Part shown: one piece after another, positions 2,368-63,280 of the stretch
How positions within the stretch are numbered: the stretch's first letter is position 1
How the letters are laid out: each line of letters opens with the position of its first letter
Source of the DNA: Candidatus Saccharicenans sp.
GTDB taxonomy: Bacteria > Acidobacteriota > Aminicenantia > Aminicenantales > Saccharicenantaceae
Direction: 5' to 3'
DNA length: 64,000 nucleotides
Assembly: GCA_024653215.1 (NCBI GenBank)
Contig: JANLFU010000010.1
Span: forward strand, 19,625 to 83,624
Notes under the pieces: model-generated
What the model saw: the letters and a program-made list of their open reading frames with translations, nothing else
The model's database searches: none
Told to the model about the DNA's origin: nothing
Program-made: the position numbers and the translations under genes

Positions 2368-2763
2368 ATGAACGGCAACAGAAACAAGATTAATGAATTC
2401 CTGAATGAAAAGGAAATTGCGGTGGTCGGGGCCTCCAGGAACCCGGCCAAGTACGGGAACATAGTATTTAACAAGCTCAAATCAGCCGGATACCTGGTCT
2501 ACCCGGTCAATCCCAGAGCTGACCTGGTAGACGGTCAAAAGGCTTATCCCGACCTGTTCAGCCTGCCGGAAACGGTCAAGGCGGCCGTGGTGGTCGTCCC
2601 GCCCGAAATTTCAGAAAAAATTGCCGGACAGGCCATTGCCGCCGGCTTCCGCTACATCTGGTTTCAACCCGGAGCCGAATCGGAAACAGCTATCTCCTTA
2701 CTTGAATCGGCCGGAATCAGCGTCATCCATGGGACCTGCCTTCTGGTCCGGGTCAGTCCCTGA
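2368..2763 (+). CDS. CoA-binding domain protein (YccU-like).
   Basis: IAVVGASRNPAKYGNIVF...GY.VYPVNP is the Rossmann-like CoA-binding signature. An A-rich RBS-like stretch (ggaaaaag) precedes the ATG. Confidence 0.6.
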   Translation: MNGNRNKINEFLNEKEIAVVGASRNPAKYGNIVFNKLKSAGYLVYPVNPRADLVDGQKAYPDLFSLPETVKAAVVVVPPEISEKIAGQAIAAGFRYIWFQPGAESETAISLLESAGISVIHGTCLLVRVSP

Positions 2764-22573: not shown

Positions 22574-22813
22574 ATGTCCGAACTTACACCAGATGTCACC
22601 CTCGATAACAGCGGGCTGGCCTGTCCCATGCCAATCATCAAGACCAAGAAGGCCATCGACGGGATGCAAGTCGGCCAGGTGCTGAAGATGATCGCCACCG
22701 ACCCCGGTTCCATCCCCGATGTCCAGGCCTGGGTCAGCAAGACCGGTCATGAACTTCTGAAGCATGAAACCGAGGGCAACAGGTTCATCTTCTACATCCG
22801 CAAGACAAAATAA
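22574..22813 (+). CDS. tusA: TusA-family sulfur carrier protein.
   Basis: LDNSGLACPMPIIKTKKAI contains the CPxP active-site cysteine motif of TusA/SirA. 79 aa. GGAGG RBS. Confidence 0.85.
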   Translation: MSELTPDVTLDNSGLACPMPIIKTKKAIDGMQVGQVLKMIATDPGSIPDVQAWVSKTGHELLKHETEGNRFIFYIRKTK

Positions 22814-23056
22814 CAGCCGTCAGGGAAGACCTGTCTTCCCCGGCCCTTAGCATAAAAGCCCCGGGCTGAAGGAGAGCTAAGAGTGGTGGGACTCAAGCGG
22901 GAGGCTTTTTTCGGAAAGCCGGTTAATCCCTCTCTGCCGGGAATATTTTTCAATCCGAACTATCCCACACGATACTTACCCCTTACCACCACAAACCATT
23001 TCAGCCACCCGTCTCGGAATTTAAGTCAAGCTAACTTCAAAAAAGGAGGATAAATA

Positions 23057-23530
23057 ATGCCTGAAGGAAAAAAGAGACTGGCCATCATCTGCCTGCACGG
23101 CAGTCTTGACGTGGCCTTTGCCACCTTCGTCCTGGCCACGGCCGGGGCCGCCATGGAAATGGAGACCGCCGTTTATTTTGCCTTCTACGGGCTGGAAGTC
23201 CTCAAGAAGGGGAAAATCAACAAGCTCAAGGTTTCACCGCTGGCCAACCCGGCCATGCCGGTGAAAATTCCCAACATCATTGCCATGCTGCCCGGGATGA
23301 CCGCCGCGGCCACGGCCATGATGAAATCCTGGATGAAAAAATCCAAGGTGGCCACCCTGGGCGAACTGCTGGACACGGCCCGGGAACTGGGCGTCAGGCT
23401 TATTGCCTGCCAGATGAGCATGGACGTCATGGGGATCAAGAAGGAAGACCTCATAGACCGGGTTGAAATCGGCGGGGCGGCTACCTTCCTGGAATTTGCC
23501 AGCCAGGATGCCATCACCCTGACCTTTTAG
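23057..23530 (+). CDS. DsrE/DsrF-family sulfur-transfer protein (DsrE-like 1).
   Basis: DsrE/DsrF fold signature (LAIICLHGSLD..., conserved Cys in IACQMS). AGGAGG RBS. Confidence 0.7.
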   Translation: MPEGKKRLAIICLHGSLDVAFATFVLATAGAAMEMETAVYFAFYGLEVLKKGKINKLKVSPLANPAMPVKIPNIIAMLPGMTAAATAMMKSWMKKSKVATLGELLDTARELGVRLIACQMSMDVMGIKKEDLIDRVEIGGAATFLEFASQDAITLTF

Positions 23531-23539
23531 GAGGAAGCC

Positions 23540-23908
23540 ATGGCCGACGATAAAATCCTGATCATCATGACCAGTGGCCCGGACACACCCCGGCGCTGTG
23601 CCACACCCTTTTTCTTTGCCACTCTGGCCACCGCTATGGATTATGATGTCACCATGTTCTTCACCATTGACGGAACCCTGCTGCTCAAGAAAGGTCTGGC
23701 CGATACAGTTTTCCCCAAGGAAGGAGGCAAATCGGTCGGCGAATTCCTGAAAGAGGCCATGGACTCCGGGGTCAAGATGACCGCCTGCACCGCTTCCCTC
23801 GAACTTCACGGCCTGAGCCCGGAAGACCTGATTCCCGAGGTCAAGATGGTCGGTGGAGCTTCCATGTGGCAGATGGCCGAGGAAAGTAAGACTGTCTTAA
23901 CTTTCTGA
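23540..23908 (+). CDS. DsrE/DsrF-family sulfur-transfer protein (DsrE-like 2).
   Basis: ILIIMTSGPDTPRRCATPFFFA with a conserved cysteine. The 9-nt spacing from the previous gene indicates translational coupling. Confidence 0.7.
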   Translation: MADDKILIIMTSGPDTPRRCATPFFFATLATAMDYDVTMFFTIDGTLLLKKGLADTVFPKEGGKSVGEFLKEAMDSGVKMTACTASLELHGLSPEDLIPEVKMVGGASMWQMAEESKTVLTF

Positions 23909-23930
23909 GCGAATCAAAAAGGAGGAAACC

Positions 23931-24377
23931 ATGGCCATAATTCGCGGCTGTAACCTTCCCGAAGACCTCTACTATTACCCGGAAAAGCACCTGTGGCTAA
24001 AGCCGCTCGGTGGAAACCTCTTCCGTATCGGACTGACCCCCATCGCCGGAAAACTGGCCGGCGGTAAACTTAACGCAGTAACCATCAGGTCCAAGAACAT
24101 CGGCCAGGAAGTCCAGCATGGGAAAAGCCTGGCCACCCTGGAGAGCAGCAAGTACGTGGGTCCGGTGCCGGCTCCCATTACCGGCATCGTCAAGTCTGGA
24201 AACGACAGGCTGGCCGCCGACCCCAACCTGGTCATCAGCGACCCTTACGGCGAAGGCTGGGTGGCCGAGATCGAAGCCACGAAGTGGGACCAGGAAAAAG
24301 CTGCCCTGCTGACCGGGGCTGAAGGCCTGGCCGAATACGAAAAGAAACTGGCAGCGGCCGGGATCTCCTGCGGGTGA
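23931..24377 (+). CDS. GcvH-like lipoate-binding protein (LbpA-type) that is not part of a glycine cleavage operon.
   Basis: YYYPEKHLWLK matches the GcvH EHEWV motif, and TLESSKYVGPVPAPITGIV matches the lipoyl-lysine motif ESVKAxxDxYxPxxGxV. No gcvT/P is nearby. Confidence 0.75.
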   Translation: MAIIRGCNLPEDLYYYPEKHLWLKPLGGNLFRIGLTPIAGKLAGGKLNAVTIRSKNIGQEVQHGKSLATLESSKYVGPVPAPITGIVKSGNDRLAADPNLVISDPYGEGWVAEIEATKWDQEKAALLTGAEGLAEYEKKLAAAGISCG

Positions 24378-24456
24378 TATTTTTTGGGTGCGCTGGAAGA
24401 TTAAAAATTAAAGTTTATAAATCGCGAAAAAATAATTCCTTCGCCAAGGAGGGCAA

Positions 24457-25608
24457 ATGAAGGAAAAAACGATTTATGAGCACTTGAGGGAAAAGGGGCT
24501 CTCCCGGCGGGACTTCATGAAACTCTGCGGCACCATTGCCGGTATGATGGGCCTGGAGTTCGTACCGCCGGTCAAAGCCCTGGGCAAAACACTCGGACCG
24601 AGCCCGGAAGAAGTGGTGGCTCAGGCCCTTAAGACCAAGCCGAAAGTTCCCATCATCTGGCTGGAGTTCCAGGACTGCGCCGGGTGCAGCGAAGCCATCT
24701 CCCGCTCCAGCTCTCCCCTTCTCAGCAACCTGGTCCTAAATGACATTGCCATCGAGTACCACGAAACCCTGATGGCTGCGGCCGGCTTCCAGGCCGAGAA
24801 GGCCAAGGAAGAATGCATGAAGAAATACTTCGGGAAATACGTGCTGGTGGTTGAGGGCAGCCCTACCCTGGCCGATGACGGCATCTACTGCACCGTGGCC
24901 GGAAAAAGTAACCTGGACCTGCTAAAGGAAGCTGCAGCCGGGGCTGCTGCCGTCATCGCCACCGGAAACTGCGCCTGCTTTGGCGGAATCCCGGCAGCCC
25001 ATCCCAACCCGACCAGGGCCGTCGGCGTGGCCGACCTCATCAAAGACAAACCCGTGGTCAACATACCGGGCTGCCCGGCCATTCCTGAAGTTACCACCGG
25101 AACCATACTCCATTTCCTCATCCTGGGCCAGTTGCCTGAGACTGACCAGCTGAAAAGGCCTTTGCCCTTCTATGGCCACACGGTTCACGACCACTGCCTG
25201 CGCCGGCCATTCTACGAAGCCGGAAAATTCGCCGGAAGCTTCGACGACGAAGGAGCCAGGAAAGGCTATTGTCTTTACCGACTCGGTTGCAAGGGCCCGA
25301 CCACTTACAATGCTTGCGCCGGCCTGAAGTGGGAACGCGGCCTTTCCTATCCCGTTCAATCCGGCCACCCCTGCCTCGGCTGTTCCGAGCCTCATTTCTG
25401 GGATGGCGGCGGCTTCTACCAGGGTCAGTCGGCTCCAATCGTACGGCTTGATAAAAGTTCCACGGCCACCCTGGTCGGAGTCGGCGTGGCGGCCGGGGCC
25501 GCCCTGGCTGGCCTCAACGCTGTCAAGAAGAGCCGGGCCAAAAAGGATCTGAAAAAAGATCAGTCTCAGGCCGCCGGGTCTGATCCCGGGTCAAAGAAGG
25601 AGGGCTGA
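24457..25608 (+). CDS. hynS: [NiFe] hydrogenase small subunit, TAT-exported, with a C-terminal membrane anchor.
   Basis: Twin-arginine signal SRRDFMKLCG. Fe-S cysteine clusters (CAGCSEA, GNCAC, CPAIPE, GCKGPTTYNACA, CLGCSEP). A C-terminal hydrophobic helix. Confidence 0.9.
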   Translation: MKEKTIYEHLREKGLSRRDFMKLCGTIAGMMGLEFVPPVKALGKTLGPSPEEVVAQALKTKPKVPIIWLEFQDCAGCSEAISRSSSPLLSNLVLNDIAIEYHETLMAAAGFQAEKAKEECMKKYFGKYVLVVEGSPTLADDGIYCTVAGKSNLDLLKEAAAGAAAVIATGNCACFGGIPAAHPNPTRAVGVADLIKDKPVVNIPGCPAIPEVTTGTILHFLILGQLPETDQLKRPLPFYGHTVHDHCLRRPFYEAGKFAGSFDDEGARKGYCLYRLGCKGPTTYNACAGLKWERGLSYPVQSGHPCLGCSEPHFWDGGGFYQGQSAPIVRLDKSSTATLVGVGVAAGAALAGLNAVKKSRAKKDLKKDQSQAAGSDPGSKKEG

Positions 25609-25609
25609 G

Positions 25610-26287
25610 ATGAACTGGACGAATATCTTGAATTTCAGCCGCGGGCCACTGCTTCATGTGGCCATGATAATTTTCGTGGCCGGCCTGAGCTACCGGCTGG
25701 TCCGGGTTCTTTTGCTCGGCTGGGCGAGAGACAGGGCTAAGAACAAGGGCAGCAAGCTCTGGGGGGTAATCGTCAATTACCTGAAGGGCCTTTTCGTCCT
25801 GCCGTTTATTCCCTGGGTCAGGCGCACCTTCCGCCACAACGAGCTGACCTTTATCGCCGGCGGGCTGTTCCACCTCAGCCTGTTCCTGGTCCTGGTTTTC
25901 GGCACGGCCCATATTTTAGTCTGGAAGAGCCTCTGGGGTTTCGGCTGGAAGGGCCTGCCAACGCCCATCCTGGCTTTCTTCTCGGCCGCGGGCATAATTT
26001 CCATGATTGTCCTGCTGATAAACCGGCTCACCCACCCGGTGTTAAAAATGCTGACCAGGTTCCCGGTCTGGATAAACTGGCTGGTGGTTTTCCTGCCGAT
26101 GATAACCGGCTTCATCATGGCCAGGCACCTGTGGTTCAGGTACGAGGTGATTTTCAGCCTGCACCTGATTTCGGTCAGCCTGCTTCTAATCTGGGTTCCC
26201 TTCGGCCGCATCTCCCACTTCCTGTTTTACTTCTTTTCCAAGACCATCCACGGAGCCCAGGCTGGTAAGCGCGCGGTAACGCCCTGA
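25610..26287 (+). CDS. isp1: Isp1-like di-haem cytochrome b membrane subunit (NarI/DsrM-like).
   Basis: 225 aa with 5-6 TM helices and conserved His in the helices. Its position between hynS and an HdrD-like gene matches the Isp-type hydrogenase architecture. Confidence 0.65.
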   Translation: MNWTNILNFSRGPLLHVAMIIFVAGLSYRLVRVLLLGWARDRAKNKGSKLWGVIVNYLKGLFVLPFIPWVRRTFRHNELTFIAGGLFHLSLFLVLVFGTAHILVWKSLWGFGWKGLPTPILAFFSAAGIISMIVLLINRLTHPVLKMLTRFPVWINWLVVFLPMITGFIMARHLWFRYEVIFSLHLISVSLLLIWVPFGRISHFLFYFFSKTIHGAQAGKRAVTP

Positions 26288-26301
26288 AAAGGAGGCAAGC
26301 C

Positions 26302-27567
26302 ATGAAAAGCCAGAAAACGCAATCAGCCATAAACACCTACCTTAAGGAGACAGGTGGCTGGGTGGCCAGTCAGCTTGAGGCCTGTACCCGCTGCGGCATC
26401 TGCGCCGAAGCCTGCCATTTCTACCAGGCCCTGGGCAATCCAGAATATGCTCCCATCTGGAAGCTGGAGCCGCTGCGCCGGGCCTATGAGCAGCGCTTCA
26501 CGGTGGCCGGCAAGCTGAAATTAGCCCTTGGCCTGGAGAAAAAGCTCGCCGACTCCGACCTGGAACACTGGAGCAAAATCGTCTACGAGGCCTGCACCGT
26601 CTGCAACAAGTGCGCCCATGTCTGCCCGATGGGCATCCAACTCGGGCCACTGATTCACGGGGTCAGAGCCGGGATGGCTGCGGCCGGAGTGGTGCCCGCG
26701 GACCTGGCCGAAGCCACGGAGAAGCAGAAAACCGTCGGCAGCCCGCTGGGGGTTACCGACGAAATGTGGCGGGAAAGAATCGACTGGATCACCGACGAAT
26801 GGGAAGCTCAAATACCAGTTGATAAGGCCGGGGCCGAGAGCCTGGTAGTTTTCACCTCAATTGAGCTTATGAAATTTCCGGATAACCTGGCCGCGGTGGC
26901 CAGGATTCTCAACAGGGCCGGAGAAAACTGGACGGTGAGCTCAACCGGCCGGGAAGTGGTTAACTTCGGCTACTTTGAAGCCGACGAGGAGCTGACCAGG
27001 CTTTTCATGTACCGGGTCTTCAAGGCGGCCGAGGAGCTGGGCGTCAAGCGGATCATCATCAGCGAATGCGGTCACGCCTACGACGCTTTTCGCTGGGCAG
27101 CACCCAACATGATGAAAGTTCCAAAGGGAGTGGAAATCGCCCACATCAGCGAGTACATCCACCAGCTCTGGAAGACCGGCCGGATCAAGCTCAAAGAAGG
27201 AGCCTTTGACGGGGAGACCATCACCTTCCACGACTCCTGCAAAATTCAGCGCCGCGGTGGCATCATCAAGCAGCCGCGGGAGCTGCTCAGGGTACTGGCT
27301 CCCAGGAGTTTCAAAGAAATGACGCCCAACAAGGAGCAGTCCCTGTGCTGCGGCGGCGGGGGCGGTGTCATCTCCATCAAGGAAGCCGACGCCAACCGCT
27401 ATGCCGTCTTCGAGATGAAAATTGAGCAGCTCCAGGAAGTCCAGGCCAGGGCCGTCTGCATGGTCTGCAGCAACTGCCGTTTGCAGTTCGTGGACAGCGT
27501 GGGGCATTTCAACCTGCCGGTAAAAGTCCACGGCCTGGCCGAGCTGGTTTCCAAGGCCCTGGTTTAA
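26302..27567 (+). CDS. isp2: Isp2-like HdrD/DsrK/GlpC-family Fe-S protein with a CCG domain.
   Basis: Two ferredoxin-like CxxCxxCxxxCP motifs (CTRCGICAEACHF; CTVCNKCAHVCPMG), plus CCG-domain cysteines (SCKIQ...CCGGGGG; CMVCSNC). Confidence 0.75.
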   Translation: MKSQKTQSAINTYLKETGGWVASQLEACTRCGICAEACHFYQALGNPEYAPIWKLEPLRRAYEQRFTVAGKLKLALGLEKKLADSDLEHWSKIVYEACTVCNKCAHVCPMGIQLGPLIHGVRAGMAAAGVVPADLAEATEKQKTVGSPLGVTDEMWRERIDWITDEWEAQIPVDKAGAESLVVFTSIELMKFPDNLAAVARILNRAGENWTVSSTGREVVNFGYFEADEELTRLFMYRVFKAAEELGVKRIIISECGHAYDAFRWAAPNMMKVPKGVEIAHISEYIHQLWKTGRIKLKEGAFDGETITFHDSCKIQRRGGIIKQPRELLRVLAPRSFKEMTPNKEQSLCCGGGGGVISIKEADANRYAVFEMKIEQLQEVQARAVCMVCSNCRLQFVDSVGHFNLPVKVHGLAELVSKALV

Positions 27568-27582
27568 GGAAAGGAGGGGAAA

Positions 27583-27903
27583 ATGGCATCCTTTAATCTT
27601 ACCCCGGTGGAAAAAGGAATCCTCAGGTGCCGTCACACCGGCCCCTTTACCCCTGAGGACATTCAATCCCTGACGGTTTTCTTCAGGGAATACCACGGCA
27701 AGCTGCTGATAGACCTCAGCGGAACTGACCCGTCCGAATGCCTGCGGCACATCAGGCACATGAGGCCGATCATGCCAACCGCGGCCATTTTCGGGGCCGA
27801 AATAGACCCCAAAATTCTGGAGATAGACCGCAGTTACTACGCCAACGAGGTGCGCTGGTTCCGGACCGAAAAAGAAGCCCTGGAATGGCTTCGCAACCAG
27901 TAA
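27583..27903 (+). CDS. Hypothetical 106-aa protein inserted between isp2 and hynL.
   Basis: Strong RBS (GGAGGGG) and tight spacing in the operon. No recognisable family. Confidence 0.5.
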   Translation: MASFNLTPVEKGILRCRHTGPFTPEDIQSLTVFFREYHGKLLIDLSGTDPSECLRHIRHMRPIMPTAAIFGAEIDPKILEIDRSYYANEVRWFRTEKEALEWLRNQ

Positions 27904-27918
27904 TGGGAGGAGGACAAA

Positions 27919-29658
27919 ATGGCTAATCGAATCGTCATCGATCCTATAACCAGGATAGAAGGTCACTTAAGGATTGAAGCCGCGATCGATGGGAACAACA
28001 CCATCACCGAGGCCTACTCGGCTGGAACCATGGTTCGCGGCATCGAAAACATCCTGAAGAAGCGCGACCCGCGCGATGCCTGGGCCTTTGCCCAGAGAAT
28101 CTGCGGGGTTTGCACCACGGTCCATGCCATTGCCTCCATCCGGGCGGTAGAAGACGCGCTAGGCATAAACATTCCTAAAGCAGCCAACCTGATGCGAAAC
28201 ATGATCATCGCCCAGCAGTACATCCATGACCACGTGATGCATTTCTACATCCTGCACGCCCTGGATTTCGTGGACGTGGTCAGTGCCCTGAAAGCTGACC
28301 CGAAGAAAACCTCGGACATCCAGCAGAGCATCTCCGGCTGGCCCAAATCCTCCCCGGCCTACTTTGCCGAGGTCCAGAAAAAGGTTCAGGCCATCGTCGA
28401 TAGCGGCCAGCTATCGCTTTTCAGCAATGGCTACTGGGGGCACCCGGCCTACAAGCTCCCGCCGGAAATCAACCTGCTGGGCGTGGCTCACTACCTGGAG
28501 TGCCTGGACTGGCAGTCACAGGTGACCAAGATCCACACCATCTTCGGCGGCAAGAACCCGCATCCCAACTTCGTGGTGGGAGGGGTGCCGCTACCCATTG
28601 ACATGAACTCGGACCAGGCCCTGAACGCCGAGAAGCTGGCGGTGATAGCCGATTCCATCAAGAGGATGAACGACTTCGTTGACCAGGTTTACCTGCCGGA
28701 CCTGCTGGCCGTGGCTCCCTATTACCTGGAATATGCGGCGGTCGGCGAAGGGTTGGGTAATTTCCTGGCCTGGGGGGAATTTCCTGAAGGGCAGCTCAAC
28801 GAAATTGATAAGCTGATTTTCCCCAGGGGTGTCATCGTCAACCGTGACCTGAAGAACGTTATCGTGCCCGACCCGAGAGATGCGGCCAGGATGAAAGAAT
28901 TCATCACCCATAGCTGGTATAAGTACAGCCAGGGCGACGAAACGGGCCTGTTTCCCTGGGAAGGCGAAACAGTCTTTAATTACACGGGTCCAAGACCGCC
29001 TTACGAATACCTCAACGTCGAGGGCAAGTATTCCTGGTTGAAATCACCCCGCTGGAACGAGCTGCCGATGGAAGTCGGCCCCCTGGCCCGGGTGCTGATT
29101 CTTTATGCCACGGGGCACAAGGAGACGGTTGCCCTGGTCAACGCCGTTCTGGAAAAGCTCAGGGCTCCGGTCAGCGCCGTGTTTTCGACGCTCGGACGGA
29201 CGGCGGCCAGGGCCATTGAGACCAAGGTCATCGCCGGGCTGCTTCAGAAGTTCTATGACGAGCTGGTGGCCGAGATTAAAGCCGGAAACACCGACACCTT
29301 CAACGACGAAAAATGGGAGCCCCGGACCTGGCCGAAGAAGGCGCTCGGTTTCGGCTATACCGAGGCGCCGCGCGGAGCCCTGGGGCACTGGGTGGTGATA
29401 GAGAACAGGAAAATCAAGAATTACCAGATAGTGGTGCCGACCACCTGGAATGCTTCGCCCCGCGACCACAGGAACCAGGCCGGCGCCTATGAGGCTTCGC
29501 TGGTCGGAACTAGGCTGGCCAACCCCGAACAGCCGCTGGAGATTCTACGGACGCTTCATTCCTTCGACCCGTGCCTGGCCTGCGCCGTGCACCTGGTCGA
29601 CACCAGCGGGAAGAAGGTCGGAGAAGCGGCCACCGGCTTTAACCTGGTTGTCCGCTGA
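27919..29658 (+). CDS. hynL: [NiFe] hydrogenase large subunit.
   Basis: N-terminal RIEGH and RICGVC (CxxC) motifs. C-terminal DPCLACAVH (DPCxxCxxH), followed by a 21-aa extension that is the expected substrate of the maturation endopeptidase. Confidence 0.92.
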   Translation: MANRIVIDPITRIEGHLRIEAAIDGNNTITEAYSAGTMVRGIENILKKRDPRDAWAFAQRICGVCTTVHAIASIRAVEDALGINIPKAANLMRNMIIAQQYIHDHVMHFYILHALDFVDVVSALKADPKKTSDIQQSISGWPKSSPAYFAEVQKKVQAIVDSGQLSLFSNGYWGHPAYKLPPEINLLGVAHYLECLDWQSQVTKIHTIFGGKNPHPNFVVGGVPLPIDMNSDQALNAEKLAVIADSIKRMNDFVDQVYLPDLLAVAPYYLEYAAVGEGLGNFLAWGEFPEGQLNEIDKLIFPRGVIVNRDLKNVIVPDPRDAARMKEFITHSWYKYSQGDETGLFPWEGETVFNYTGPRPPYEYLNVEGKYSWLKSPRWNELPMEVGPLARVLILYATGHKETVALVNAVLEKLRAPVSAVFSTLGRTAARAIETKVIAGLLQKFYDELVAEIKAGNTDTFNDEKWEPRTWPKKALGFGYTEAPRGALGHWVVIENRKIKNYQIVVPTTWNASPRDHRNQAGAYEASLVGTRLANPEQPLEILRTLHSFDPCLACAVHLVDTSGKKVGEAATGFNLVVR

Positions 29659-30020
29659 AGCTGCACACAATCTAGGTTTAAGAAGTGATTGGACGGCCAA
29701 GAGCTTGAAACGCCGGGACTGGCCCGTTAACCAGGTGAATCATAATTCCGGAGGAGTAAGAGCACAGACCGGGCACTGGCAACGGCAGATGATAGAAACG
29801 TTTGAAAAATTGAAGATATCTAACCGAAAAAGAACAAACGGCCCGGTTGGGGTTCCAGCCCTTCAGGGACAAGACGCTGTTCAGAAAACCGCCTTATTCC
29901 AGGACGGCCACAAATGGCAGGTAGCTGCTAACCTGGGTAAAACTGGCGTGCGGTCAGCTGTCCGGACCAGAAAGAAGCGGCAGTCACAACGTGTCGTCAT
30001 GGGGACGAAACCTATTAGAT

Positions 30021-30040
30021 ATATGAATGGTTATTCATAT
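30021..30040. promoter_or_regulatory. Perfect palindrome ATATGAA-N6-TTCATAT in the hynL-hynD intergenic gap; candidate transcription-factor operator.
   Basis: 7-bp inverted repeat with a 6-bp spacer, 38 nt upstream of the hynD start. The same half-sites and spacing recur at 58481..58500. Confidence 0.45.
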
Positions 30041-30077
30041 GTCCTGAAACTGGCCGAATCTGAGGGCAGAAACTGAA

Positions 30078-30569
30078 ATGACCAAGAGAATTGTGGTGCT
30101 TGGAGTGGGAAACATCCTGAACCGGGATGAAGGAGCGGGAGTGCAGGCCCTAAAAGAACTGGAAAAAATTCTACCCGCTGGCCTGAAGCCGAAGGTTGAG
30201 CTGGTAGATGGCGGGGTGCTGGGGATGGACCTTCTCCCCTACGTGGAACGGGCCACTCACCTGCTCGTCCTGGATGCGGCGGATTTCCAGGGCCGGCCGG
30301 GAGAAATCCGGGAGTTTCCGGGAGGGGCGCTAAAAACATTTTTCTCAGGCAAGATTTCCTGGCACCAGCTCGGCTTCCAGGAGGTGCTGGAAGTAGCCCG
30401 GGTCAGAGGGCACTATCCGGGACAGGTTCACCTGATCGGCGTTCAGCCGGGGGACATGGAAGTCGGACTGGGCTTAAGCGAAGCTCTGGAGCTTTCCGTG
30501 AAGGACATGGCCAGAAGGGCCCTGGATATACTGAAAAACTGGCTCGAAGATACTGACCATGCAGGATAA
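30078..30569 (+). CDS. hynD: Hydrogenase maturation endopeptidase (HyaD/HybD/HynD family).
   Basis: IVVLGVGNILNRDEGAG ... LLVLDA is typical of the family. 163 aa. Confidence 0.8.
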   Translation: MTKRIVVLGVGNILNRDEGAGVQALKELEKILPAGLKPKVELVDGGVLGMDLLPYVERATHLLVLDAADFQGRPGEIREFPGGALKTFFSGKISWHQLGFQEVLEVARVRGHYPGQVHLIGVQPGDMEVGLGLSEALELSVKDMARRALDILKNWLEDTDHAG

Positions 30570-30906
30570 ATTCCGGAGGATTACCCCTCAAATAAAAATG
30601 TTAACTTGCACCATCTACAGGTCCAGGACCAAGTACAGGAAACAGAAGAGTCACCATGCGCTTCAGGTTCAAGTGGCAGCAAGAATCCTGCCTGTGCGAA
30701 GTCTTAATCAAAGGCTTCTGGCCTTTACCAGATATTCAGCTCCAGAAACCCGAACTCTGAAGCCTGGATTGAGGCATTAATAAAACAAATTTCCGAGGGA
30801 TTGATTTATAAAACTAAATAAGGCAAAAAAGGCATTAATTACCAAAATGGGGCTAATCAAAAAACAAACGATAAATCATCTTAAGGACCTGGAAAGGAAA
30901 TAAAGG

Positions 30907-32007
30907 ATGGACGGGAATCATAGGAAAAGAATAAGGGGCATCGACCTGGGGGAAGTGCCGGCCGTTAGGTCGCAGACTTGCTACCATGCTGTCGGCTACG
31001 CCTTTGGACCCAAAACTCCTGATACCATCATCCTGGTCAGCCCCGCGAGTCCCTATGTCTGTGTCGGCTTCCACCAGGAAGCGGAGAGGGAAGTTGACCT
31101 GGAATACTGCCGGCAGGCCGGGCTGCCCGTCTACCGGCGCGAAGTCGGAGGCGGCGCTGTCTATCTCGACCGGAACCAGCTTTTCGTGCAGTGGATTTTC
31201 CACCCGGAAAGCCTGCCCCTCGAGCTTGAGGATAAATTCAGGTTCTACGTTGAGCCAATTATCCTCACCTACCGGGAGCTGGGAATTGAGGCCTCTTACC
31301 GCCCGGTTAATGACATCCACGTAGCCGGAAAGAAAATCGGAGGCACGGGCGCGGCCAGGATCGGCCAGGCGGACATCCTGGTCGGAAGTTTCATGTTTGA
31401 TTTTGATAAGAAAACGATGGCCAGGGTGCTCCGGGTTTCCTCAGAAAAGATGCGTGACAAGGTCTTCCAGAGCCTGGAGCAGTATATGACCACGATGAAA
31501 GAACTGTTGCCGGAACTTCCCGCCAGAGAGATTGTTAAGAGAATTTATCTGAATAAGGTGGCAGAACTGCTGGAAGCCGAAGTAGAGGCAGGCGGAATGT
31601 GCGAGGCAGAACTTCAAGAGGCGGAAAGGCTGGACCGCCTTTTCCAGAGCGAGGACTGGATTTTCCAGAAGGGACCGCTGCGCCGGCCTTCCGTCAAGAT
31701 CCACGAAGATGTCCACGTGCGCGAGGTGGATTATAAAGCTCCGGGCGGATTGATCAGGTTGACAGCCAGGATCAGGACGGAGGGCGGAAAACCGATCCTG
31801 GATTCGGTCTGGATTTCCGGCGACTTCACCGCCATTCCCAAGGAAGGTATATTCATCCTGGAAGATAGGCTGCGGGGTATTGCCATCGAGGAAAAAAGCA
31901 TCGGTGAAGCGGTCTGCCGGGCTCTTGGAGAATCGGGGCTGCAGTGTCCCGGACTGACAGAACAGAGCTGGATTTCTGCCCTGCTCAGGCTGACCGATTC
32001 CGGGTAA
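30907..32007 (+). CDS. lplA: Lipoate-protein ligase A family protein.
   Basis: HVAGKKIGGTGAARIG matches the LplA lysine-loop motif (GRKISGSAQ). 366 aa with a C-terminal accessory domain. Confidence 0.7.
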   Translation: MDGNHRKRIRGIDLGEVPAVRSQTCYHAVGYAFGPKTPDTIILVSPASPYVCVGFHQEAEREVDLEYCRQAGLPVYRREVGGGAVYLDRNQLFVQWIFHPESLPLELEDKFRFYVEPIILTYRELGIEASYRPVNDIHVAGKKIGGTGAARIGQADILVGSFMFDFDKKTMARVLRVSSEKMRDKVFQSLEQYMTTMKELLPELPAREIVKRIYLNKVAELLEAEVEAGGMCEAELQEAERLDRLFQSEDWIFQKGPLRRPSVKIHEDVHVREVDYKAPGGLIRLTARIRTEGGKPILDSVWISGDFTAIPKEGIFILEDRLRGIAIEEKSIGEAVCRALGESGLQCPGLTEQSWISALLRLTDSG

Positions 32008-32368
32008 ATTGCGGTTGGCCCCTGCCCCCGAAGCAGATAATATGCATCAAGGCGGAGCAAAAAATTATAAAGGCTCTTGGTCGCCGGATTTATTGATTAT
32101 CGAGTGGGGTTTATAGGTTTTCTTTCAGCCAAAGTATATAAAATGAATTTTTCACCGGGGAAGCCGGCAAATGACCTTCTCAAAGTCTGTATCAAAGACT
32201 TAACCGTGTTTCGTTGTATATCCGTCTGCCTGGCCGGCTCTCAACTTCCTCATAATAATAACGATACAGGAAAAAATACCCCAGGCTGCCAGGTAAATAA
32301 ATTCGGGTTTTTAAGTTGCCTATTATCAGGTAGCCGTCTATAATAGAAAATAAGGCAGGAGGTAAAAC

Positions 32369-32863
32369 ATGATCAGCAAAAAGATGGAAGAAGCCATCAA
32401 CAAACAGATCAACGAGGAGATGTATTCGGCCTATCTTTATCTGTCGATGGCCGGGTACTTTGCCGAGCAGAACCTGATGGGTTTCCACAACTGGCTGTAT
32501 GTTCAGTACCACGAAGAGCTGGAGCATGCCGAGAAATTCTACAAGTATCTGGTGGAACGCGGCGGGCAGGTCAGGCTGGCCGCTATCAAGGAACCCGAGC
32601 ACACCTGGAAAAACGCCAGGGATGCCTTCGAGGCGGTCCTCAAGCACGAACGGCACATTACCGGCAGGATTAACGAGCTGGTGGACATAGCCGAAGCAGA
32701 AAAGGACCGGGCTTCTTTCGCCATGCTGCAGTGGTTCGTCAACGAGCAGGTCGAAGAAGAAGCTAACGCCCAGGACATCCTGTCCAAGCTGGAGATGGTG
32801 GGCGACCACAAGCAGGGCCTGCTGATGATCGACCGGGCCCTGGCCGAACGGAAAAAAGGCTGA
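32369..32863 (+). CDS. ftn: Non-haem ferritin.
   Basis: EEMYSAYLYLSMAGYF ... EELEHAEKF ... LQWFVNEQVEEE are ferroxidase-centre ligand motifs. 164 aa. Confidence 0.85.
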   Translation: MISKKMEEAINKQINEEMYSAYLYLSMAGYFAEQNLMGFHNWLYVQYHEELEHAEKFYKYLVERGGQVRLAAIKEPEHTWKNARDAFEAVLKHERHITGRINELVDIAEAEKDRASFAMLQWFVNEQVEEEANAQDILSKLEMVGDHKQGLLMIDRALAERKKG

Positions 32864-55988: not shown

Positions 55989-56510
55989 GGGAATTTTCCC
56001 ATCTGCGGTAATAATCGGACAGCTTCCTACTTATCGGTGTGCGGGGTCAGATAAATTATCGAAACATCAGGGCAAGAAGGACAGGTGTTATTACACATTC
56101 GGCCCGGCTCTACAGTTGCATCATTCCGGGCTCCGGATTTATAAGGTCTCTGCCTGGCCAGGGGACCGCATCAAAGAGCGCGGTCAACAAGCTGAAGCGA
56201 TTTGACTATTATGCCGCCTGCGGCAATGTCGGCAGGACTTGTTCTACCAGCTCCTCTGCCTGCTCTCTGAATTGGGCCCTTCCGATTTTAGCCTGTATTT
56301 TCATGCGCTTAGGATAGAGCCATATATGAATGAAGTTTCATATAATAAAAAGGGTTGAAGTGAAGCTTAAAATTAAATAGATATATAATGCCCTTAAAAC
56401 AAGTCGGCTGCTTCAAGAAGGTGGCCGGGGATGAATGGTCAGATGGTCCGGGCAAACCCGCGGTCAGCCTGACCGGGTCGGGCCGGAACCAGGGCCGGTG
56501 GAGGTTCAAA

Positions 56511-57010
56511 TGAGTGATGAGAAGATAAGCGGGAACAGCGTACAGGGAATGGACGAAAAAAAGATAAAGCCCCGCCTGCTTAAAAAAATGCTCGGCCAGG
56601 AATTCTGCCTCTCCGACTGGCTGACCATGACCCAGGACCGAATTAACGCCTTTGCCGATTGCACCGAGGACCACCAGTGGATTCACGTCGACCTGGAGAG
56701 GGCCAGCCGGAGCCCGCTCAAGAGCACCATCGCCCACGGCTTTCTTCTGCTGTCGCTTCTGCCCCATTTCCTGGCCCAGTCGCCCCTGGCCAGGATCAAG
56801 GTCCGGATGATTTTCAACTACGGCCTGGACCGGATCAGGTTCATCCAGCCGGTCAGGCCGGGAGACCGCATCAGGAACCGGGCCGTGCTAAAAGAAATTA
56901 AAAGGAAAGGTTTCCGCCGCTGGCTGGTGAAAATTGAAAACACCCTGGAAATAGACGGCAACCCCAAGCCGGCCCTGGTGGCCGAGCTCCTGGTCTTCGT
57001 GATTTTCTGA
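56511..57010 (+). CDS. MaoC-like (R)-hydratase/dehydratase hot-dog fold protein. The start is set at the ATG with a GGAGG RBS.
   Basis: DWLTMTQDRINAFADCTEDHQWIHVD is the MaoC hot-dog motif. Confidence 0.65.
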
Positions 57011-57031: not shown

Positions 57032-58213
57032 TCAGCGACCGGCGGCCAGGTCTTTCAGGATGTCCACGGTCCGGTCTATTTCTTCGAAGGAATTGTAGAT
57101 ATGGGTGGACTGGCGCACTCCGTAGACCTCGCCCATTGACCGGGGCCGAAGTCGGGCCCTCTTCCAGAGCTCATCCTGGATAAAATTCCCGGTCAGGCCT
57201 TCAATGTTGTAAACGGTAATCCCGGCGGCCATTTCGGGGTGAAGCGGGGTAAATAGCTGAATTCCCGGAACTTCCTGCAACCTGGTCCTCAGGTAATCAC
57301 CGAGGGCCTTGATCCGGGCATAGACCCGCTCCGGGCCAAGTTCAAAATGAAAATCAAGGGCCTCGTCCAGTCCGAAAAGAAGCGACAGGTTGCCGGTGCC
57401 CCGCTGGCCCAGGCGGAAGCCGTGGTCTTCCTGGTTATCCCACTGGGTGCTGGCCAGGGTGGTCCAGACTTTCCCGGCCATGTCGCGCCGGAGATATAAG
57501 AAGCCGTTACCGGCCGGGGCGCAGAGCCACTTGTGAAAGCTGCCGTAGTAAGCGTCGCAGCCGAGTTCTTTCAGGTCAACCCGGATCTGGCCGACGGTCT
57601 GGGCCCCGTCTATGACCGTGAAAATTCCCCGCTGCCGGGCTTCGGCGCAGAGCTCTTTAACCGGCAGGATGGCCCCGCTGCCGGTGATGATATGGGGAAT
57701 GGCCAGGACCCTGGTTCTTGGGCCCATGGCCTGAACGAAGGTGTCGATAACTTCCCGCGGCGATTTGATCGGTTTTCCGAGCGGCAACTGGCGGTAGACA
57801 ACACCGCAGCGTTTGGCCTTGAGCTTCCAGCCGGACTCGCCGCCGGGATGTTCCTGGTCGGTTCCCAGGACCTCATCCCCTTCTTTGAGGTCAAGCCCGT
57901 TCGAGATGTAGTTCATTCCGGCCGTGGCATTTTCGGTCAGGGCAATTTCCCCGGCCTGGCAGTTCAGCAACCGGGCGATTTTCTCCCTGATTTCAGTCCA
58001 GGGCTGGTAGCCTGAAATCCAGTCGGCCCCGTAATAATCCCACTCGGCAATCTTTTCGGCCGTGAGCCGAAGGTGGTTGACAACCCGGTCCAGGACCCGT
58101 CGGGGCATGGCCCCCAGGGTGCCGGTGTTGAAAAAGACCTGGCCAGGGTCGAGCAGGAATTCCGCCCTCACTTTCTTCCAGAATTCTTTTTCTTCGGCTT
58201 CCCGCTCCAGCAT
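57032..58213 (-). CDS. Class V aminotransferase-fold PLP enzyme (cysteine desulfurase / isopenicillin-N epimerase-like).
   Basis: SFHKWLCAPAG contains the PLP-lysine. 393 aa. Fold-type I motifs. Confidence 0.65.
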   Translation of the reverse strand: MLEREAEEKEFWKKVRAEFLLDPGQVFFNTGTLGAMPRRVLDRVVNHLRLTAEKIAEWDYYGADWISGYQPWTEIREKIARLLNCQAGEIALTENATAGMNYISNGLDLKEGDEVLGTDQEHPGGESGWKLKAKRCGVVYRQLPLGKPIKSPREVIDTFVQAMGPRTRVLAIPHIITGSGAILPVKELCAEARQRGIFTVIDGAQTVGQIRVDLKELGCDAYYGSFHKWLCAPAGNGFLYLRRDMAGKVWTTLASTQWDNQEDHGFRLGQRGTGNLSLLFGLDEALDFHFELGPERVYARIKALGDYLRTRLQEVPGIQLFTPLHPEMAAGITVYNIEGLTGNFIQDELWKRARLRPRSMGEVYGVRQSTHIYNSFEEIDRTVDILKDLAAGR

Positions 58214-58480
58214 TTTCTCCTCCCGGACTGAAATTTCCCAGAAATTTTCCCGGCCCGAAACCGCTGAGCAGACCGGGACAGGTTCAGGAATCTTCGACTA
58301 CGGCTGTAAGCCACTTCCTGGATTCAAGGCTTCCAGTCACCTGATTCCTGCCTGAGCCAATAAGTTTAGCCGATTCTTACCCATTGATAAAGTGAGCTAC
58401 AGCTTATAAGAAATAAATTCTGTGGACCGGTTATTCTTCTGCCAGGACACGGTCTCAAAGGCTCAGGAAAAATACTCAAT

Positions 58481-58500
58481 ATATGAACATCCATTCATAT
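58481..58500. promoter_or_regulatory. Second copy of the ATATGAA-N6-TTCATAT palindrome; candidate operator upstream of the class V aminotransferase gene.
   Basis: ATATATGAA-catcca-TTCATATAT (58479..58502) lies about 270 nt upstream of the minus-strand start at 58213. Half-site and spacing are identical to 30021..30040. Confidence 0.45.
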
Positions 58501-58639
58501 ATTGTTCTCAGGACACAGAGATATTTGTAATTATTCTTCGAATGCATAAAAAATCTCTGCGCCAGGGAACTTATCCCCTCGATGACCATCAGCTCATTTA
58601 ATCAGAATGTTACGGTCCTTTATTAAATCCCGTCCCGGC

Positions 58640-62782: not shown

Positions 62783-63280
62783 TCAGGCCACCTGACTGCC
62801 TTAAATCTTACGCCAGGCCGCCCCCGAGGTCAATCAAGCGGAAGCCCCTGCGGCGCCTGGTCTTCCGGAAGATGACTCCGGAACGGGCTATTTACCCGGA
62901 AACTACCTTTCTTATCTCAAACAGCAAAAAAATGAAGTAACCCCTCAGGCTGGAACCTGGCTCATGCCTCCAGAAGAATCGGGCTTCAGGCATTAAAGCC
63001 TGAATGCCTCCCCGGCGCAGTTTACCCGCCAGGCTGGATTATTGATGATCAGACCATAATAGCCCTGAATACCCCTATCCAGCACCAGCTTCCCCCGATT
63101 CCAAGCCAGGACCCGCCCCGAGAAGCCAGGCCCAGACAGACGGGTGGCGTCGCCGAACTCAGGCCGGGCCCGATAGGTTAACTTATTGATTATAAATTAT
63201 ATATATCCAGGCCCCGGCTTCCGGCTTGACAATCCGGGCCGTTCTGGGTAAAGTTTTACTAACTTTCAGGAAGGTGAATA

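What the first reader, a model, noticed from the sequence alone, without database searches (positions are those of the whole stretch)
58479..58502. Same ATATGAA-N6-TTCATAT operator-like palindrome recurs upstream of a cysteine-desulfurase-like aminotransferase
ATATATGAAcatccaTTCATATAT has half-sites and spacing identical to the palindrome at 30021..30040. A 14-position-specified motif occurring twice in 64 kb of GC-rich DNA is very unlikely by chance. The second copy is in the intergenic region upstream of a class V PLP enzyme, a fold used by cysteine desulfurases that generate persulfide sulfur. A common regulator might therefore co-control sulfur mobilisation and the hydrogenase/sulfur-carrier locus.
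Basis: seen in the sequence. Interest (0 to 1): 0.6.

Follow-up and report, generated by a model that had tools for sequence, protein, structure and literature searches.

The report
Conserved repressor-type palindrome, dispersed regulon
The repeated palindrome is real and looks like the docking site of a paired DNA-binding regulator of a well-known kind (ArsR/SmtB type), but in this uncultured bacterium it sits next to many unrelated genes, so it does not specifically link sulfur mobilisation to the hydrogenase.

Summary
ATATATGAA-N6-TTCATAT occurs three times in the window (30019, 56322, 58479), not twice. All copies are intergenic, and about 1e-4 exact matches are expected by chance. The organism is Candidatus Saccharicenans (Aminicenantes). 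In related species the 7-nt arms are 99% invariant across 24 sites while spacers and flanks diverge. Site 1 stays exactly 37 nt from the hybD start codon. Site 2 stays 11 nt from a footprinted maoC promoter. This is the signature of a dimeric DNA-binding protein, not a repeat element, terminator or RNA hairpin. The sequence matches the 12-2-12 (TGAA-N6-TTCA) operators of ArsR/SmtB metal-sensing repressors. In other phyla the same 22-mer lies directly upstream of arsR-like genes and heavy-metal pumps. No such regulator gene was found in any Saccharicenans DNA I could reach. There the palindrome also precedes sugar and fermentation genes, and it occurs in two convergent gene gaps, which implies dozens of copies per genome. 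The "cysteine-desulfurase-like" enzyme lacks the catalytic cysteine and descends from an exported PvdN-like enzyme. A shared regulator is plausible, but the sulfur-specific reading is not supported. This is a new member of a known kind, of modest interest.

The parts
30019..30040 (.). Palindrome copy 1: ATATATGAA-tggtta-TTCATAT. It lies 37 nt upstream of the hybD start codon and 361 nt after the hynL stop codon.
   Evidence: It is conserved with different spacers in L315, L316, L317 and L319. The spacing to the ATG is exactly 37 nt in the window, L316, L317 and L319, while the distance from hynL varies from 203 to 437 nt.
56322..56346 (.). Palindrome copy 2: ATATATGAA-tgaagt-TTCATATAAT, upstream of maoC.
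   Evidence: It is present in 8 of the 23 Saccharicenans species representatives (plus the window itself). Only a decayed remnant (10/14) is left in L149.
58479..58502 (.). Palindrome copy 3 (the finding): ATATATGAA-catcca-TTCATATAT. It lies 266 nt upstream of the class-V PLP enzyme gene and 138 nt downstream of the beta-lactamase-family gene.
   Evidence: It is present in 11 of the 23 Saccharicenans species representatives (plus the window itself) with invariant arms and variable spacers.
30078..30569 (+). hybD/hyaD-type [NiFe]-hydrogenase maturation endopeptidase, the gene downstream of copy 1.
   Evidence: Pfam HycI and NCBIfam hydrog_prot/hupD. In L319 it overlaps the lplA-like gene by 4 nt, so the two are probably co-transcribed there.
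56510..57010 (+). MaoC-like dehydratase gene, downstream of copy 2. The likely start is 56510 (GGAGG ribosome-binding site, 166 aa).
   Evidence: Pfam MaoC_dehydratas. The 166-aa gene call in L002/L324 agrees, as does the sequence.
56355..56383 (+). Footprinted maoC core promoter: TTGAAG (56355-56360), 17-nt spacer, TAGATA (56378-56383). The palindrome core ends 11 nt before the -35 element.
   Evidence: The pattern TTGACA/TTGAAG-17-TAGGAT/TAGATA is conserved across species with and without copy 2. No transcription start site was mapped.
57032..58213 (-). Class-V-fold PLP enzyme (PvdN/C-DES-like, no catalytic-loop cysteine), the gene downstream of copy 3.
58356..58391 (-). Second conserved block in the PLP-enzyme leader: TTTATC-17-TAAACTTATTGGC on the minus strand. 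It is promoter-like, and it aligns with the start region of the Tat-signal-bearing form of the gene in other species.
   Evidence: Alignments. The function is inferred only.

Best explanation
The three palindromes are binding sites (operators) for one dimeric winged-helix DNA-binding regulator encoded outside this window. That regulator is most likely a member of the ArsR/SmtB family, of the CzrA/SmtB/NmtR type that recognises 12-2-12 inverted repeats with a TGAA-N6-TTCA core.

Proposed mechanism: the free dimer occupies the site and hinders transcription of the adjacent gene. Binding of its inducer lowers DNA affinity and releases expression. For this operator class the inducer is typically a divalent metal such as Zn, Ni or Co.

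In Saccharicenans the sites form a dispersed set, probably dozens per genome. The set includes hybD(-lplA), maoC and the PLP enzyme in this window. Elsewhere it includes a fucose-isomerase-like gene, a ROK glucokinase and a Gfo/Idh/MocA oxidoreductase; Saccharicenans-like contigs add an Fe-type alcohol dehydrogenase.

Shown: the sites exist, are non-random, are under strong sequence-specific selection on both arms, are anchored to downstream starts or promoters, and are identical to arsR-adjacent operators in other phyla.

Inferred: the family of the regulator in this organism, the direction of regulation, and the inducer.
For: - Three exact 14/14 sites against 1e-4 expected, with none at 12-13/14.
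- Across 24 orthologous or paralogous sites, 333 of 336 arm positions are identical, while the 6-nt spacer and the flanks vary.
- Copy 1 lies exactly 37 nt from the hybD ATG in four genomes, down to 61% protein identity, in otherwise unalignable DNA.
- Copy 2 lies 11 nt from the -35 of a footprinted promoter in five species.
- The fucose-isomerase-like gene has the site 23-25 nt before its ATG, just ahead of the ribosome-binding site.
- The ROK site is conserved between two species with different spacers.
- The metagenome scan with the 22-mer found about 17 loci where an ArsR-like ORF touches the motif, plus 11 P1B heavy-metal ATPases and a CDF transporter. HTH_5 (ArsR) is the only DNA-binding family that recurs among the flanking genes (ROK, seen twice, is the other recurrent family; the Saccharicenans copy is named a glucokinase by its source). 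The named members are 'metalloregulator ArsR/SmtB' proteins of Eubacterium, Clostridia and Bacilli.
- An annotated B. thuringiensis plasmid arsR/P-type-ATPase operon carries two copies. One sits between TTGACA and TATAAT; the other sits 24 nt before the ATG.
- The literature confirms 12-2-12 repeats such as AATACCTGAACA-GA-TGTTCAAGTATT for SmtB/ArsR repressors, and shows that the regulator can be remote from its target (PMC8790569).
- CzrA, SmtB and NmtR share an operator type (10.64898/2026.05.15.721447).
- There is a precedent for an ArsR-family repressor of a hydrogenase-type operon: Rv0081 (10.1101/465575).
Against: - No ArsR-like ORF was found in the window, in about 17 kb of extra contig, or in any of about 35 Saccharicenans loci.
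- None of the roughly 23 Aminicenantes-like motif loci has an adjacent ArsR gene. All arsR adjacency comes from other phyla.
- The neighbouring genes show no metal-efflux theme.
- At least two sites lie in convergent gene gaps with real genes on both sides: PBP1A against DUF6600, and a metallophosphoesterase against DUF1848.
- Copies 2 and 3 lie upstream of their putative core promoters, about 11 nt and about 100 nt before the -35 respectively. That position is atypical for simple steric repression.
- Near-perfect identity of dozens of sites is unusual for a large regulon.
Confidence: 0.5

Rival explanations
1. The site is the operator of a global regulator from a different family. For example, this could be a redox or fermentation regulator that happens to use the same TGAA-N6-TTCA geometry. 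It could be Rex-like with a wider spacing, ArgR-like, or LacI/ROK-like.
For: The neighbouring genes in Saccharicenans and Saccharicenans-like contigs are sugar, fermentation and hydrogen-related: a fucose-isomerase-like gene, glucokinase, Fe-ADH, Gfo/Idh/MocA, the hydrogenase protease and MaoC. No arsR gene is nearby. The half-site TATGAA resembles the Rex half-site TGTGAA, and the ARG box wnTGAATwwwwATTCAnw has the same geometry (both from established knowledge).
Against: The Rex operator has GAA-N4-TTC spacing, not N6, and no canonical Rex site is present in the window. There are no arg genes or tandem ARG boxes. The spacer lacks the central CG of LacI-type sites. ArsR (HTH_5) is the only DNA-binding family that recurs next to the exact motif.
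Confidence: 0.2
2. The palindrome is a dispersed extragenic element with a structural or chromosomal role. It could be the binding site of a nucleoid-associated or transcription-roadblock protein, or a low-copy REP-like element. On this reading it is not a gene-specific operator.
For: About 23 distinct Aminicenantes-like loci appeared in a truncated scan that had roughly 50% sensitivity. All copies are intergenic. In 12 of about 18 cases the site lies 140 nt or less downstream of a stop codon. Two cases are robustly convergent. Only one divergent case was seen. The copies are unusually uniform.
Against: The estimated density is only about one site per 50-90 kb, so dozens rather than hundreds per genome. 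The flanks are not conserved, there is no GTAG-type REP head, and no paired REPIN arrangement. Positions are anchored to downstream start codons or promoters, at 37 nt and 11 nt. Six of about 18 sites lie 50 nt or less upstream of a start codon. Lone half-sites occur only at chance frequency.
Confidence: 0.2
3. A sulfur- or persulfide-responsive regulator co-controls a cysteine desulfurase and the hydrogenase/sulfur-carrier locus through these sites.
For: One copy lies inside a cluster encoding TusA, DsrE, DsrE, a GcvH-like protein, an Isp-type hydrogenase, HybD and LplA. ArsR-type sulfane-sulfur sensors (sHdrR, SoxR) control similar TusA/DsrE/LbpA clusters in Hyphomicrobium (PMC12423496).
Against: The PLP enzyme lacks a catalytic cysteine and derives from Tat-exported PvdN-like enzymes. 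No site lies upstream of tusA, dsrE, gcvH or hynS. Most other targets are unrelated to sulfur. The persulfide sensor SqrR uses an ATTC half-site and shows no crosstalk with the CzrA/SmtB operator class (10.64898/2026.05.15.721447).
Confidence: 0.05
4. The palindrome acts at the RNA level, as a hairpin that terminates transcription or stabilises or processes the mRNA.
For: As RNA the palindrome folds at -6 to -11.5 kcal/mol, with z-scores of -2.8 to -4.1. Many copies lie shortly after stop codons.
Against: The stems are AU-rich and have no U-tract, and no terminator-like sites were scored at any copy. The stem never shows a compensatory or G-U change in 24 sites, although the loop varies freely. 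There is no Rfam match. Several copies lie upstream of promoters.
Confidence: 0.04

Closest known systems
12-2-12 operators of ArsR/SmtB metalloregulators (CzrA/SmtB/NmtR 'metal 1' cluster; AztR and AzuR in Anabaena)
   Same: It is an inverted repeat with a TGAA-N6-TTCA core and AT-rich outer arms. The same 22-mer (four spacer positions left free) occurs directly upstream of arsR-like genes, P1B ATPases and a CDF transporter in other phyla. Several Saccharicenans copies sit between a promoter and a start codon, as in smt, zia and nmtA (PMC8790569).
   Different: No cognate arsR gene was found nearby. The targets are not efflux or sequestration genes. There are probably dozens of near-identical copies per genome. 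Some copies lie upstream of the -35 or in convergent gaps.
Rv0081 of Mycobacterium tuberculosis (an ArsR/SmtB-family hub regulator heading the formate-hydrogenlyase-like operon)
   Same: It is an ArsR-family repressor that binds an inverted repeat and controls hydrogenase-type genes (10.1101/465575). That it has many targets is from my own recollection.
   Different: Rv0081 is encoded at the head of the operon it represses. Here the regulator is not at the locus, and only the maturation protease hybD is preceded by the site. No comparison of operator sequences was possible.
sHdrR/SoxR and SqrR/BigR (sulfane-sulfur-sensing ArsR-type repressors)
   Same: They belong to the same protein superfamily. 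sHdrR controls clusters containing TusA, DsrE, LbpA (GcvH-like) and lipoate ligase, much like the cluster around copy 1 (PMC12423496).
   Different: The SqrR operator has an ATTC half-site (ATTC-N8-GAAT in full, from my memory), and different ArsR clusters do not cross-react (10.64898/2026.05.15.721447). The sHdrR/SoxR consensus is not defined in the papers I read.
CIRCE/HrcA-type elements (perfect 9-bp arms with a fixed-length variable spacer)
   Same: The architecture and the pattern of conservation are the same: invariant arms and a free spacer of fixed length.
   Different: The sequence, the spacer length (9 against 6) and the gene set differ, and CIRCE has only a few copies per genome. 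This comparison is from established knowledge and was not tested here.

Membership tests
ArsR/SmtB 12-2-12 operator | Imperfect 12-2-12 inverted repeat with a TGAA...TTCA core separated by 6 bp | tested here: met
   All three copies, and 24 sites in relatives, read AT-ATATGAA-N6-TTCATAT-A(A/T)T. For comparison, the literature gives AATACCTGAACA-GA-TGTTCAAGTATT (PMC8790569).
ArsR/SmtB 12-2-12 operator | The same sequence is found at promoters of arsR/smtB genes and metal-efflux genes | tested here: met
   About 17 of 116 metagenome loci have an ArsR-like ORF touching the motif, along with P1B ATPases and a CDF transporter. The B. thuringiensis plasmid operon carries it too. All of these are outside Aminicenantes.
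ArsR/SmtB 12-2-12 operator | The site overlaps the promoter or lies between the -10 and the start codon of the regulated gene | tested here: inconclusive
   Consistent for hybD (37 nt before the ATG) and the fucose-isomerase-like gene (23-25 nt). Copy 2 lies upstream of the -35, and copy 3 lies 266 nt from the ATG. No transcription start sites are known.
ArsR/SmtB 12-2-12 operator | A cognate ArsR/SmtB repressor is encoded in the genome, often adjacent and autoregulated | tested here: not met
   A custom ArsR HMM found nothing in the window or in any Saccharicenans locus. No HTH_5/HTH_20 gene appears in the annotated loci. Only about 150 kb of distinct (non-orthologous) Saccharicenans DNA was inspected, so absence from the genome was not tested. 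Remote regulators are known, for example AzuR (PMC8790569).
ArsR/SmtB 12-2-12 operator | Bound by the apo-repressor dimer and released by the inducer | not testable with these tools
   This needs EMSA, DAP-seq or reporter assays.
Persulfide-sensor (SqrR/BigR-type) operator | ATTC-N8-GAAT type half-sites | tested here: not met
   The half-sites here are ATATGAA/TTCATAT in the TGAA...TTCA orientation. The ATTC half-site and the lack of cross-reaction come from 10.64898/2026.05.15.721447; the N8 spacing and GAAT arm are from my memory.
Rex operator | TTGTGAA-N4-TTCACAA (GAA-N4-TTC spacing) | tested here: not met
   The spacing here is N6 in all 24 sites. The window has no canonical Rex site, even allowing 3 mismatches.
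REP / REPIN elements | High copy number, imperfect palindromes with a conserved head, conserved flanks or pairs, association with a RAYT transposase | tested here: inconclusive
   The flanks are not conserved, there is no paired arrangement apart from one tandem in L243, and the estimated density is one site per 50-90 kb. Whole-genome copy number and RAYT presence could not be tested.
Intrinsic terminator | G+C-rich stem followed by a U-tract | tested here: not met
   The stem is AU-rich with no U-tract, and no terminator-like hit falls on any copy.
Cysteine desulfurase (the downstream PLP enzyme, as read by the first stage) | Class-V fold plus a catalytic cysteine on the active-site loop, and scores above the family cut-offs | tested here: not met
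   The fold criterion is met (Pfam Aminotran_5). No cysteine occurs after residue 231. All NCBIfam desulfurase models score far below their cut-offs, for example sufS at 130 bits against 475. The best solved relatives are PvdN and C-DES. Homologues carry Tat signals.

The most novel reading that the evidence does not exclude
Saccharicenans (Aminicenantes) may have turned an ArsR/SmtB-type sensor into a genome-wide hub regulator. Dozens of almost invariant operators would couple a single signal to sugar catabolism, fermentation and [NiFe]-hydrogenase maturation. The signal could be a metal such as Ni or Zn. On this reading the sites would include positions outside classical promoters, such as convergent gaps, where the protein would act as a roadblock or domain boundary.
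Probability: 0.2. Interest if true: 0.55.

Novelty: new member of a known kind. Interest (0 to 1): 0.35.

Why it matters
This gives the first concrete cis-regulatory element for an uncultured phylum (Aminicenantes/OP8) that is abundant in digesters and subsurface aquifers. The site is exact and easy to scan for. It can be used to define a regulon across MAGs and to fish out its regulator. If the regulator proves to be an ArsR/SmtB protein, it would show this 'metal-efflux' family controlling central fermentative and hydrogenase-maturation genes. For the scan itself, the practical result is a correction. The palindrome does not tie a cysteine desulfurase to the hydrogenase/sulfur-carrier locus, and the enzyme is not a desulfurase.

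Tried and rejected
- **Chance:** rejected.
- **Longer repeat or MITE:** the flanks do not align.
- **Known RNA families:** no Rfam hit at the gathering threshold or at the E-value threshold. No tRNA genes were found.
- **Terminator:** none scored.
- **Viral collection scan with the 14-base motif:** It also showed that large scans need at least 18 specified bases.
- **Small divergent ORFs next to copies 2 and 3:** these are a 31-aa ORF at 56208-56303 on the minus strand and a 19-aa ORF at 58544-58603. Neither is conserved in S. subterraneus, judged by eye.
- **Small TF-like ORFs next to sites in Aminicenantes-like loci:** none found.
- **Walking along the source contig for the regulator:** no transcription factor found.
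- **ArsR HMM search of all fetched loci:** the only Acidobacteriota hit is an ArsR-methyltransferase fusion next to ahcY in a Terriglobia MAG, which is unrelated.
- **pI258-type cadC operator as the match:** it is a different sequence, TCAAATAAATATTTGA. The 2026 preprint agrees that cadO is divergent.
- **Canonical Rex site:** absent.
- **A palindrome-borne promoter:** the right arm plus AAT gives TATAAT in many copies, but there is no -35 or TG extension. I kept this only as a possibility.
- **sHdrR and SoxR papers:** they give no usable consensus.
- **Third homologue search:** I ran no further search on a generic ArsR query, because the 120 best hits would not be restricted to this taxon.
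Full report
**1. Observation**

The reported sequence is present at the stated coordinates. Positions 58479-58502 read ATATATGAAcatccaTTCATATAT, and 30019-30040 read ATATATGAAtggttaTTCATAT.

The 14 specified positions (ATATGAA-N6-TTCATAT) are expected about 1e-4 times in 64 kb of this composition. First-order Markov simulations gave no perfect site, 0.01 sites at 13/14 and 0.085 at 12/14. The window has three sites at 14/14 and none at 12 or 13. Lone half-sites occur only at chance frequency. The DNA around the three copies does not align, so this is a dyad-specific element and not part of a longer repeat.

**2. Context in the window**

Homologues, and an exact match to a 131-kb metagenome contig, identify the organism as Candidatus Saccharicenans (Aminicenantes/OP8, Acidobacteriota).

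| Copy | Position relative to neighbouring genes |
|---|---|
| 1 | 361 nt after the [NiFe]-hydrogenase large subunit gene (27919-29658); 37 nt before the maturation protease hybD (30078-30569) |
| 2 | 334 nt after hrpA; upstream of a MaoC-like dehydratase gene whose likely start is 56510 |
| 3 | 138 nt after a beta-lactamase-family gene; 266 nt before a class-V PLP enzyme gene (57032-58213, minus strand) |

maoC and the PLP gene are convergent, with one palindrome on each outer side.

**3. Conservation**

A genome-collection search with the PLP enzyme returned 23 Saccharicenans species representatives. The gene order bla-amt-maoC-hrpA is conserved in all loci long enough to show it.

- Copy 3 is present in 11 of them and copy 2 in 8. 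The arms are perfect and the spacers differ.
- L149 retains only a decayed 10/14 remnant of copy 2.
- Loci around hybD homologues show copy 1 in S. subterraneus, SKW99, MAG-74 and one further metagenome contig. It is absent from MAG-75 and from one other contig.
- MAG-75 also lacks copy 3 at its amt locus (L137), and that locus ends before maoC. Three genomes carry two or three copies each. Presence therefore tracks by genome.

Over 24 sites, 333 of 336 arm positions are identical. The spacer is variable but biased, reading T-G-R-W-T-N. The flanks extend the dyad to AT-ATATGAA...TTCATAT-A(A/T)T.

Two anchoring facts argue for a promoter-linked function:

- Copy 1 ends exactly 37 nt before the hybD ATG in four genomes. 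Its distance from the hynL stop codon ranges from 203 to 437 nt, and the surrounding DNA is otherwise unalignable.
- Copy 2 ends exactly 11 nt before the -35 hexamer of a maoC promoter in five species. That promoter (TTGACA/TTGAAG-17-TAGGAT/TAGATA) is itself conserved in species that lack the palindrome.

Invariant arms, a free spacer of fixed length and no compensatory changes are what a sequence-specific dimeric DNA-binding protein produces. An RNA stem would not give this pattern. The hairpin is weak and AU-rich and lacks a U-tract. No Rfam family matches.

**4. What kind of site**

The core geometry TGAA-N6-TTCA inside AT-rich outer arms is that of the 12-2-12 operators of ArsR/SmtB repressors. 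One published example is AATACCTGAACA-GA-TGTTCAAGTATT (PMC8790569).

I tested this lead directly by scanning public metagenome contigs for ATATATGAATG-N4-TTCATAT.

- About 100 of the 118 sites lie outside long ORFs.
- The flanking ORFs form clusters of P1B heavy-metal ATPases (11 loci) and ArsR/SmtB proteins.
- An HMM built from those proteins finds an ArsR-like ORF touching the motif in about 17 loci.
- In a Pfam tally of 85 flanking ORFs, the recurrent families are HMA, E1-E2 ATPase, HAD-like Hydrolase (part of the same ATPases), HTH_5 (ArsR), ROK, GFO/IDH/MocA and Fe-ADH_2. HTH_5 is the only DNA-binding family among them.
- Exact look-ups name several of these proteins as 'metalloregulator ArsR/SmtB' of Eubacterium, Clostridia or Bacilli, or (without an organism name) as lead/cadmium/zinc/bismuth-responsive ArsR-family regulators.

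An annotated Bacillus thuringiensis plasmid shows the classical layout. The sequence reads TTGACA-C-ATATGAAtaggcgCTCATAT-AAT, so one operator fills the promoter spacer and overlaps the -10. A second, perfect copy lies 24 nt before the arsR ATG, and a heavy-metal P-type ATPase gene follows.

The pI258-type cadC operator is different. A 2026 preprint reports that cadO is divergent. It also reports that CzrA, SmtB and NmtR share an operator type and cross-react. The persulfide sensor SqrR, by contrast, uses an ATTC half-site and shows no crosstalk (10.64898/2026.05.15.721447).

**5. The twist inside Saccharicenans**

None of the arsR-adjacent loci is from this phylum. By tetranucleotide signature, about 23 of the 116 loci are Saccharicenans/Aminicenantes-like (r of 0.78 or higher; Saccharicenans controls give 0.86-0.98). 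None of these has an ArsR-like ORF. Exact protein look-ups confirm that two of them are Saccharicenans loci, and place a third in a protein cluster that includes Saccharicenans/Aminicenantes MAGs.

In these genomes and contigs the palindrome occupies several kinds of position:

| Position | Examples |
|---|---|
| 23-25 nt before the ATG, just ahead of the ribosome-binding site | fucose-isomerase-like gene in L206 and in S. subterraneus (L327) |
| 111 nt before the gene | ROK glucokinase in two species, with different spacers |
| 21-48 nt before the gene | Fe-type alcohol dehydrogenase, a CBM9 protein, a secreted protein, a DUF1295 membrane protein |
| 130-350 nt before the gene | a formamidase and two Gfo/Idh/MocA genes |
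| Convergent gap with real genes on both sides | PBP1A against DUF6600/FecR (two species); metallophosphoesterase against DUF1848 |

No further copies occur in the roughly 20-kb neighbourhoods inspected. That gives a rough density of one site per 50-90 kb, or dozens per genome.

No regulator gene was found in the window, in about 17 kb of extra contig, or in any Saccharicenans locus.

**6. Interpretation**

The best-supported reading is an operator for a dimeric winged-helix regulator. That regulator is most likely of the ArsR/SmtB CzrA/SmtB/NmtR type, is encoded elsewhere, and has a dispersed target set. This is shown:

- the sites are real and under selection;
- they are anchored to downstream starts or promoters;
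- the sequence is identical to arsR-adjacent operators elsewhere.

This is inferred:

- the family of the regulator in this organism;
- that it represses;
- its inducer.

The position of copy 2 (about -47 to -66 relative to the inferred start) does not fit simple steric repression. Nor does copy 3, which lies about 100 nt upstream of a promoter-like conserved block. In many copies the right arm plus AAT forms TATAAT. A second, operator-borne promoter is therefore possible, but no -35 supports it. The convergent-gap copies and the uniformity of the copies keep a structural or roadblock reading alive. The fermentation-flavoured gene set keeps a non-ArsR global regulator alive. I give these 0.2 each, and 0.5 to the ArsR/SmtB-type operator.

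**7.

A common regulator is plausible. The sulfur link is not supported, for four reasons.

- The PLP enzyme has no cysteine after residue 231. It scores far below every cysteine-desulfurase cut-off. It is closest to PvdN and to the cysteine-less cystine lyase C-DES.
- Its homologues in other Acidobacteriota and in the low-GC Saccharicenans clade begin with twin-arginine export signals. The window's clade has lost that signal. The second conserved block in the leader (58356-58391) aligns with the former start region.
- Copy 1 precedes hybD, not the TusA/DsrE/GcvH-like or hydrogenase structural genes. No copy lies upstream of those.
- The operator class is the metal-sensor one, not the persulfide-sensor one.

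**8. Novelty and score**

This is a new member of a known kind of element in an uncultured phylum, with an unusual and still unexplained target set. Interest is 0.35. The most novel reading not excluded is an ArsR/SmtB-type hub regulator with dozens of invariant sites. It would couple one signal to sugar catabolism, fermentation and hydrogenase maturation, and some of its sites would act outside promoters. I give this a probability of 0.2 and an interest of 0.55 if true.

Noticed in passing
window 22574-32863: This is an Isp-type (hynS-isp1-isp2-hynL) [NiFe]-hydrogenase operon. It is preceded by TusA, two DsrE-like genes (23058-23531 and 23541-23909) and a GcvH-like lipoyl-carrier gene, and followed by hybD, an LplA-like lipoate ligase and a ferritin. 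The order is conserved in six relatives. The accessory genes resemble those of sHdr sulfur-oxidation clusters, but with a hydrogenase in place of sHdr.
   Followed up: partly
window 58214-58400 (minus strand); L133, L136-L139, P0052, L154: The PLP enzyme's homologues carry an N-terminal Tat signal (for example MSRRDFLK). The window's clade has lost it (393 aa). It keeps a strongly conserved non-coding block, GCTAAACTTATTGGC, that aligns with the old start region.
   Followed up: partly
window 29659-30018: The spacer between hynL and hybD is unusually long (about 360-440 nt) in genomes that carry copy 1, against 42 nt in MAG-75, which lacks it. The short block CCAGAAAGnAGCnGCAGT, about 45 nt upstream of the palindrome, is conserved in three genomes.
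   Followed up: no
L209 67-2523: In an unrelated organism (not Aminicenantes-like, r=0.24) the same palindrome lies 11 nt upstream of hypC in a hypC-hypD-hypE operon. This is a second case where this operator type precedes hydrogenase maturation genes.
   Followed up: partly
L203, L207, L214, L224, L235 and 12 more loci: A family of gut-metagenome loci (about 38% G+C) carries the palindrome 80 nt upstream of a MATE efflux transporter gene, with no adjacent ArsR gene.
   Followed up: no
L243 292-355; L232 8417-8468: One Aminicenantes-like locus has two copies in tandem, with starts 44 nt apart. Another has the dyad extended to 16-nt perfect arms (CTCATCAATATATGAA...TTCATATATTGATGAG).
   Followed up: no
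L286 11241 and L284 5406: The palindrome is present in the same convergent gap (PBP1A against a DUF6600/FecR protein) in two species. It sits at different distances from the PBP1A stop codon (36 and 104 nt), and the rest of the gap is unalignable.
   Followed up: partly
window 62783-63280 (L001 5033-5342): A 500-nt gap separates the divergent ffh (SRP54) and accB genes. One gene caller placed an odd 22-residue product spanning 310 nt there. No Rfam family matched.
   Followed up: no
window 2366-2372: A lone ATATGAA half-site overlaps the start codon of a small CoA-binding-domain protein gene (2368-2763). It has no partner arm, so it counts as chance.
   Followed up: yes
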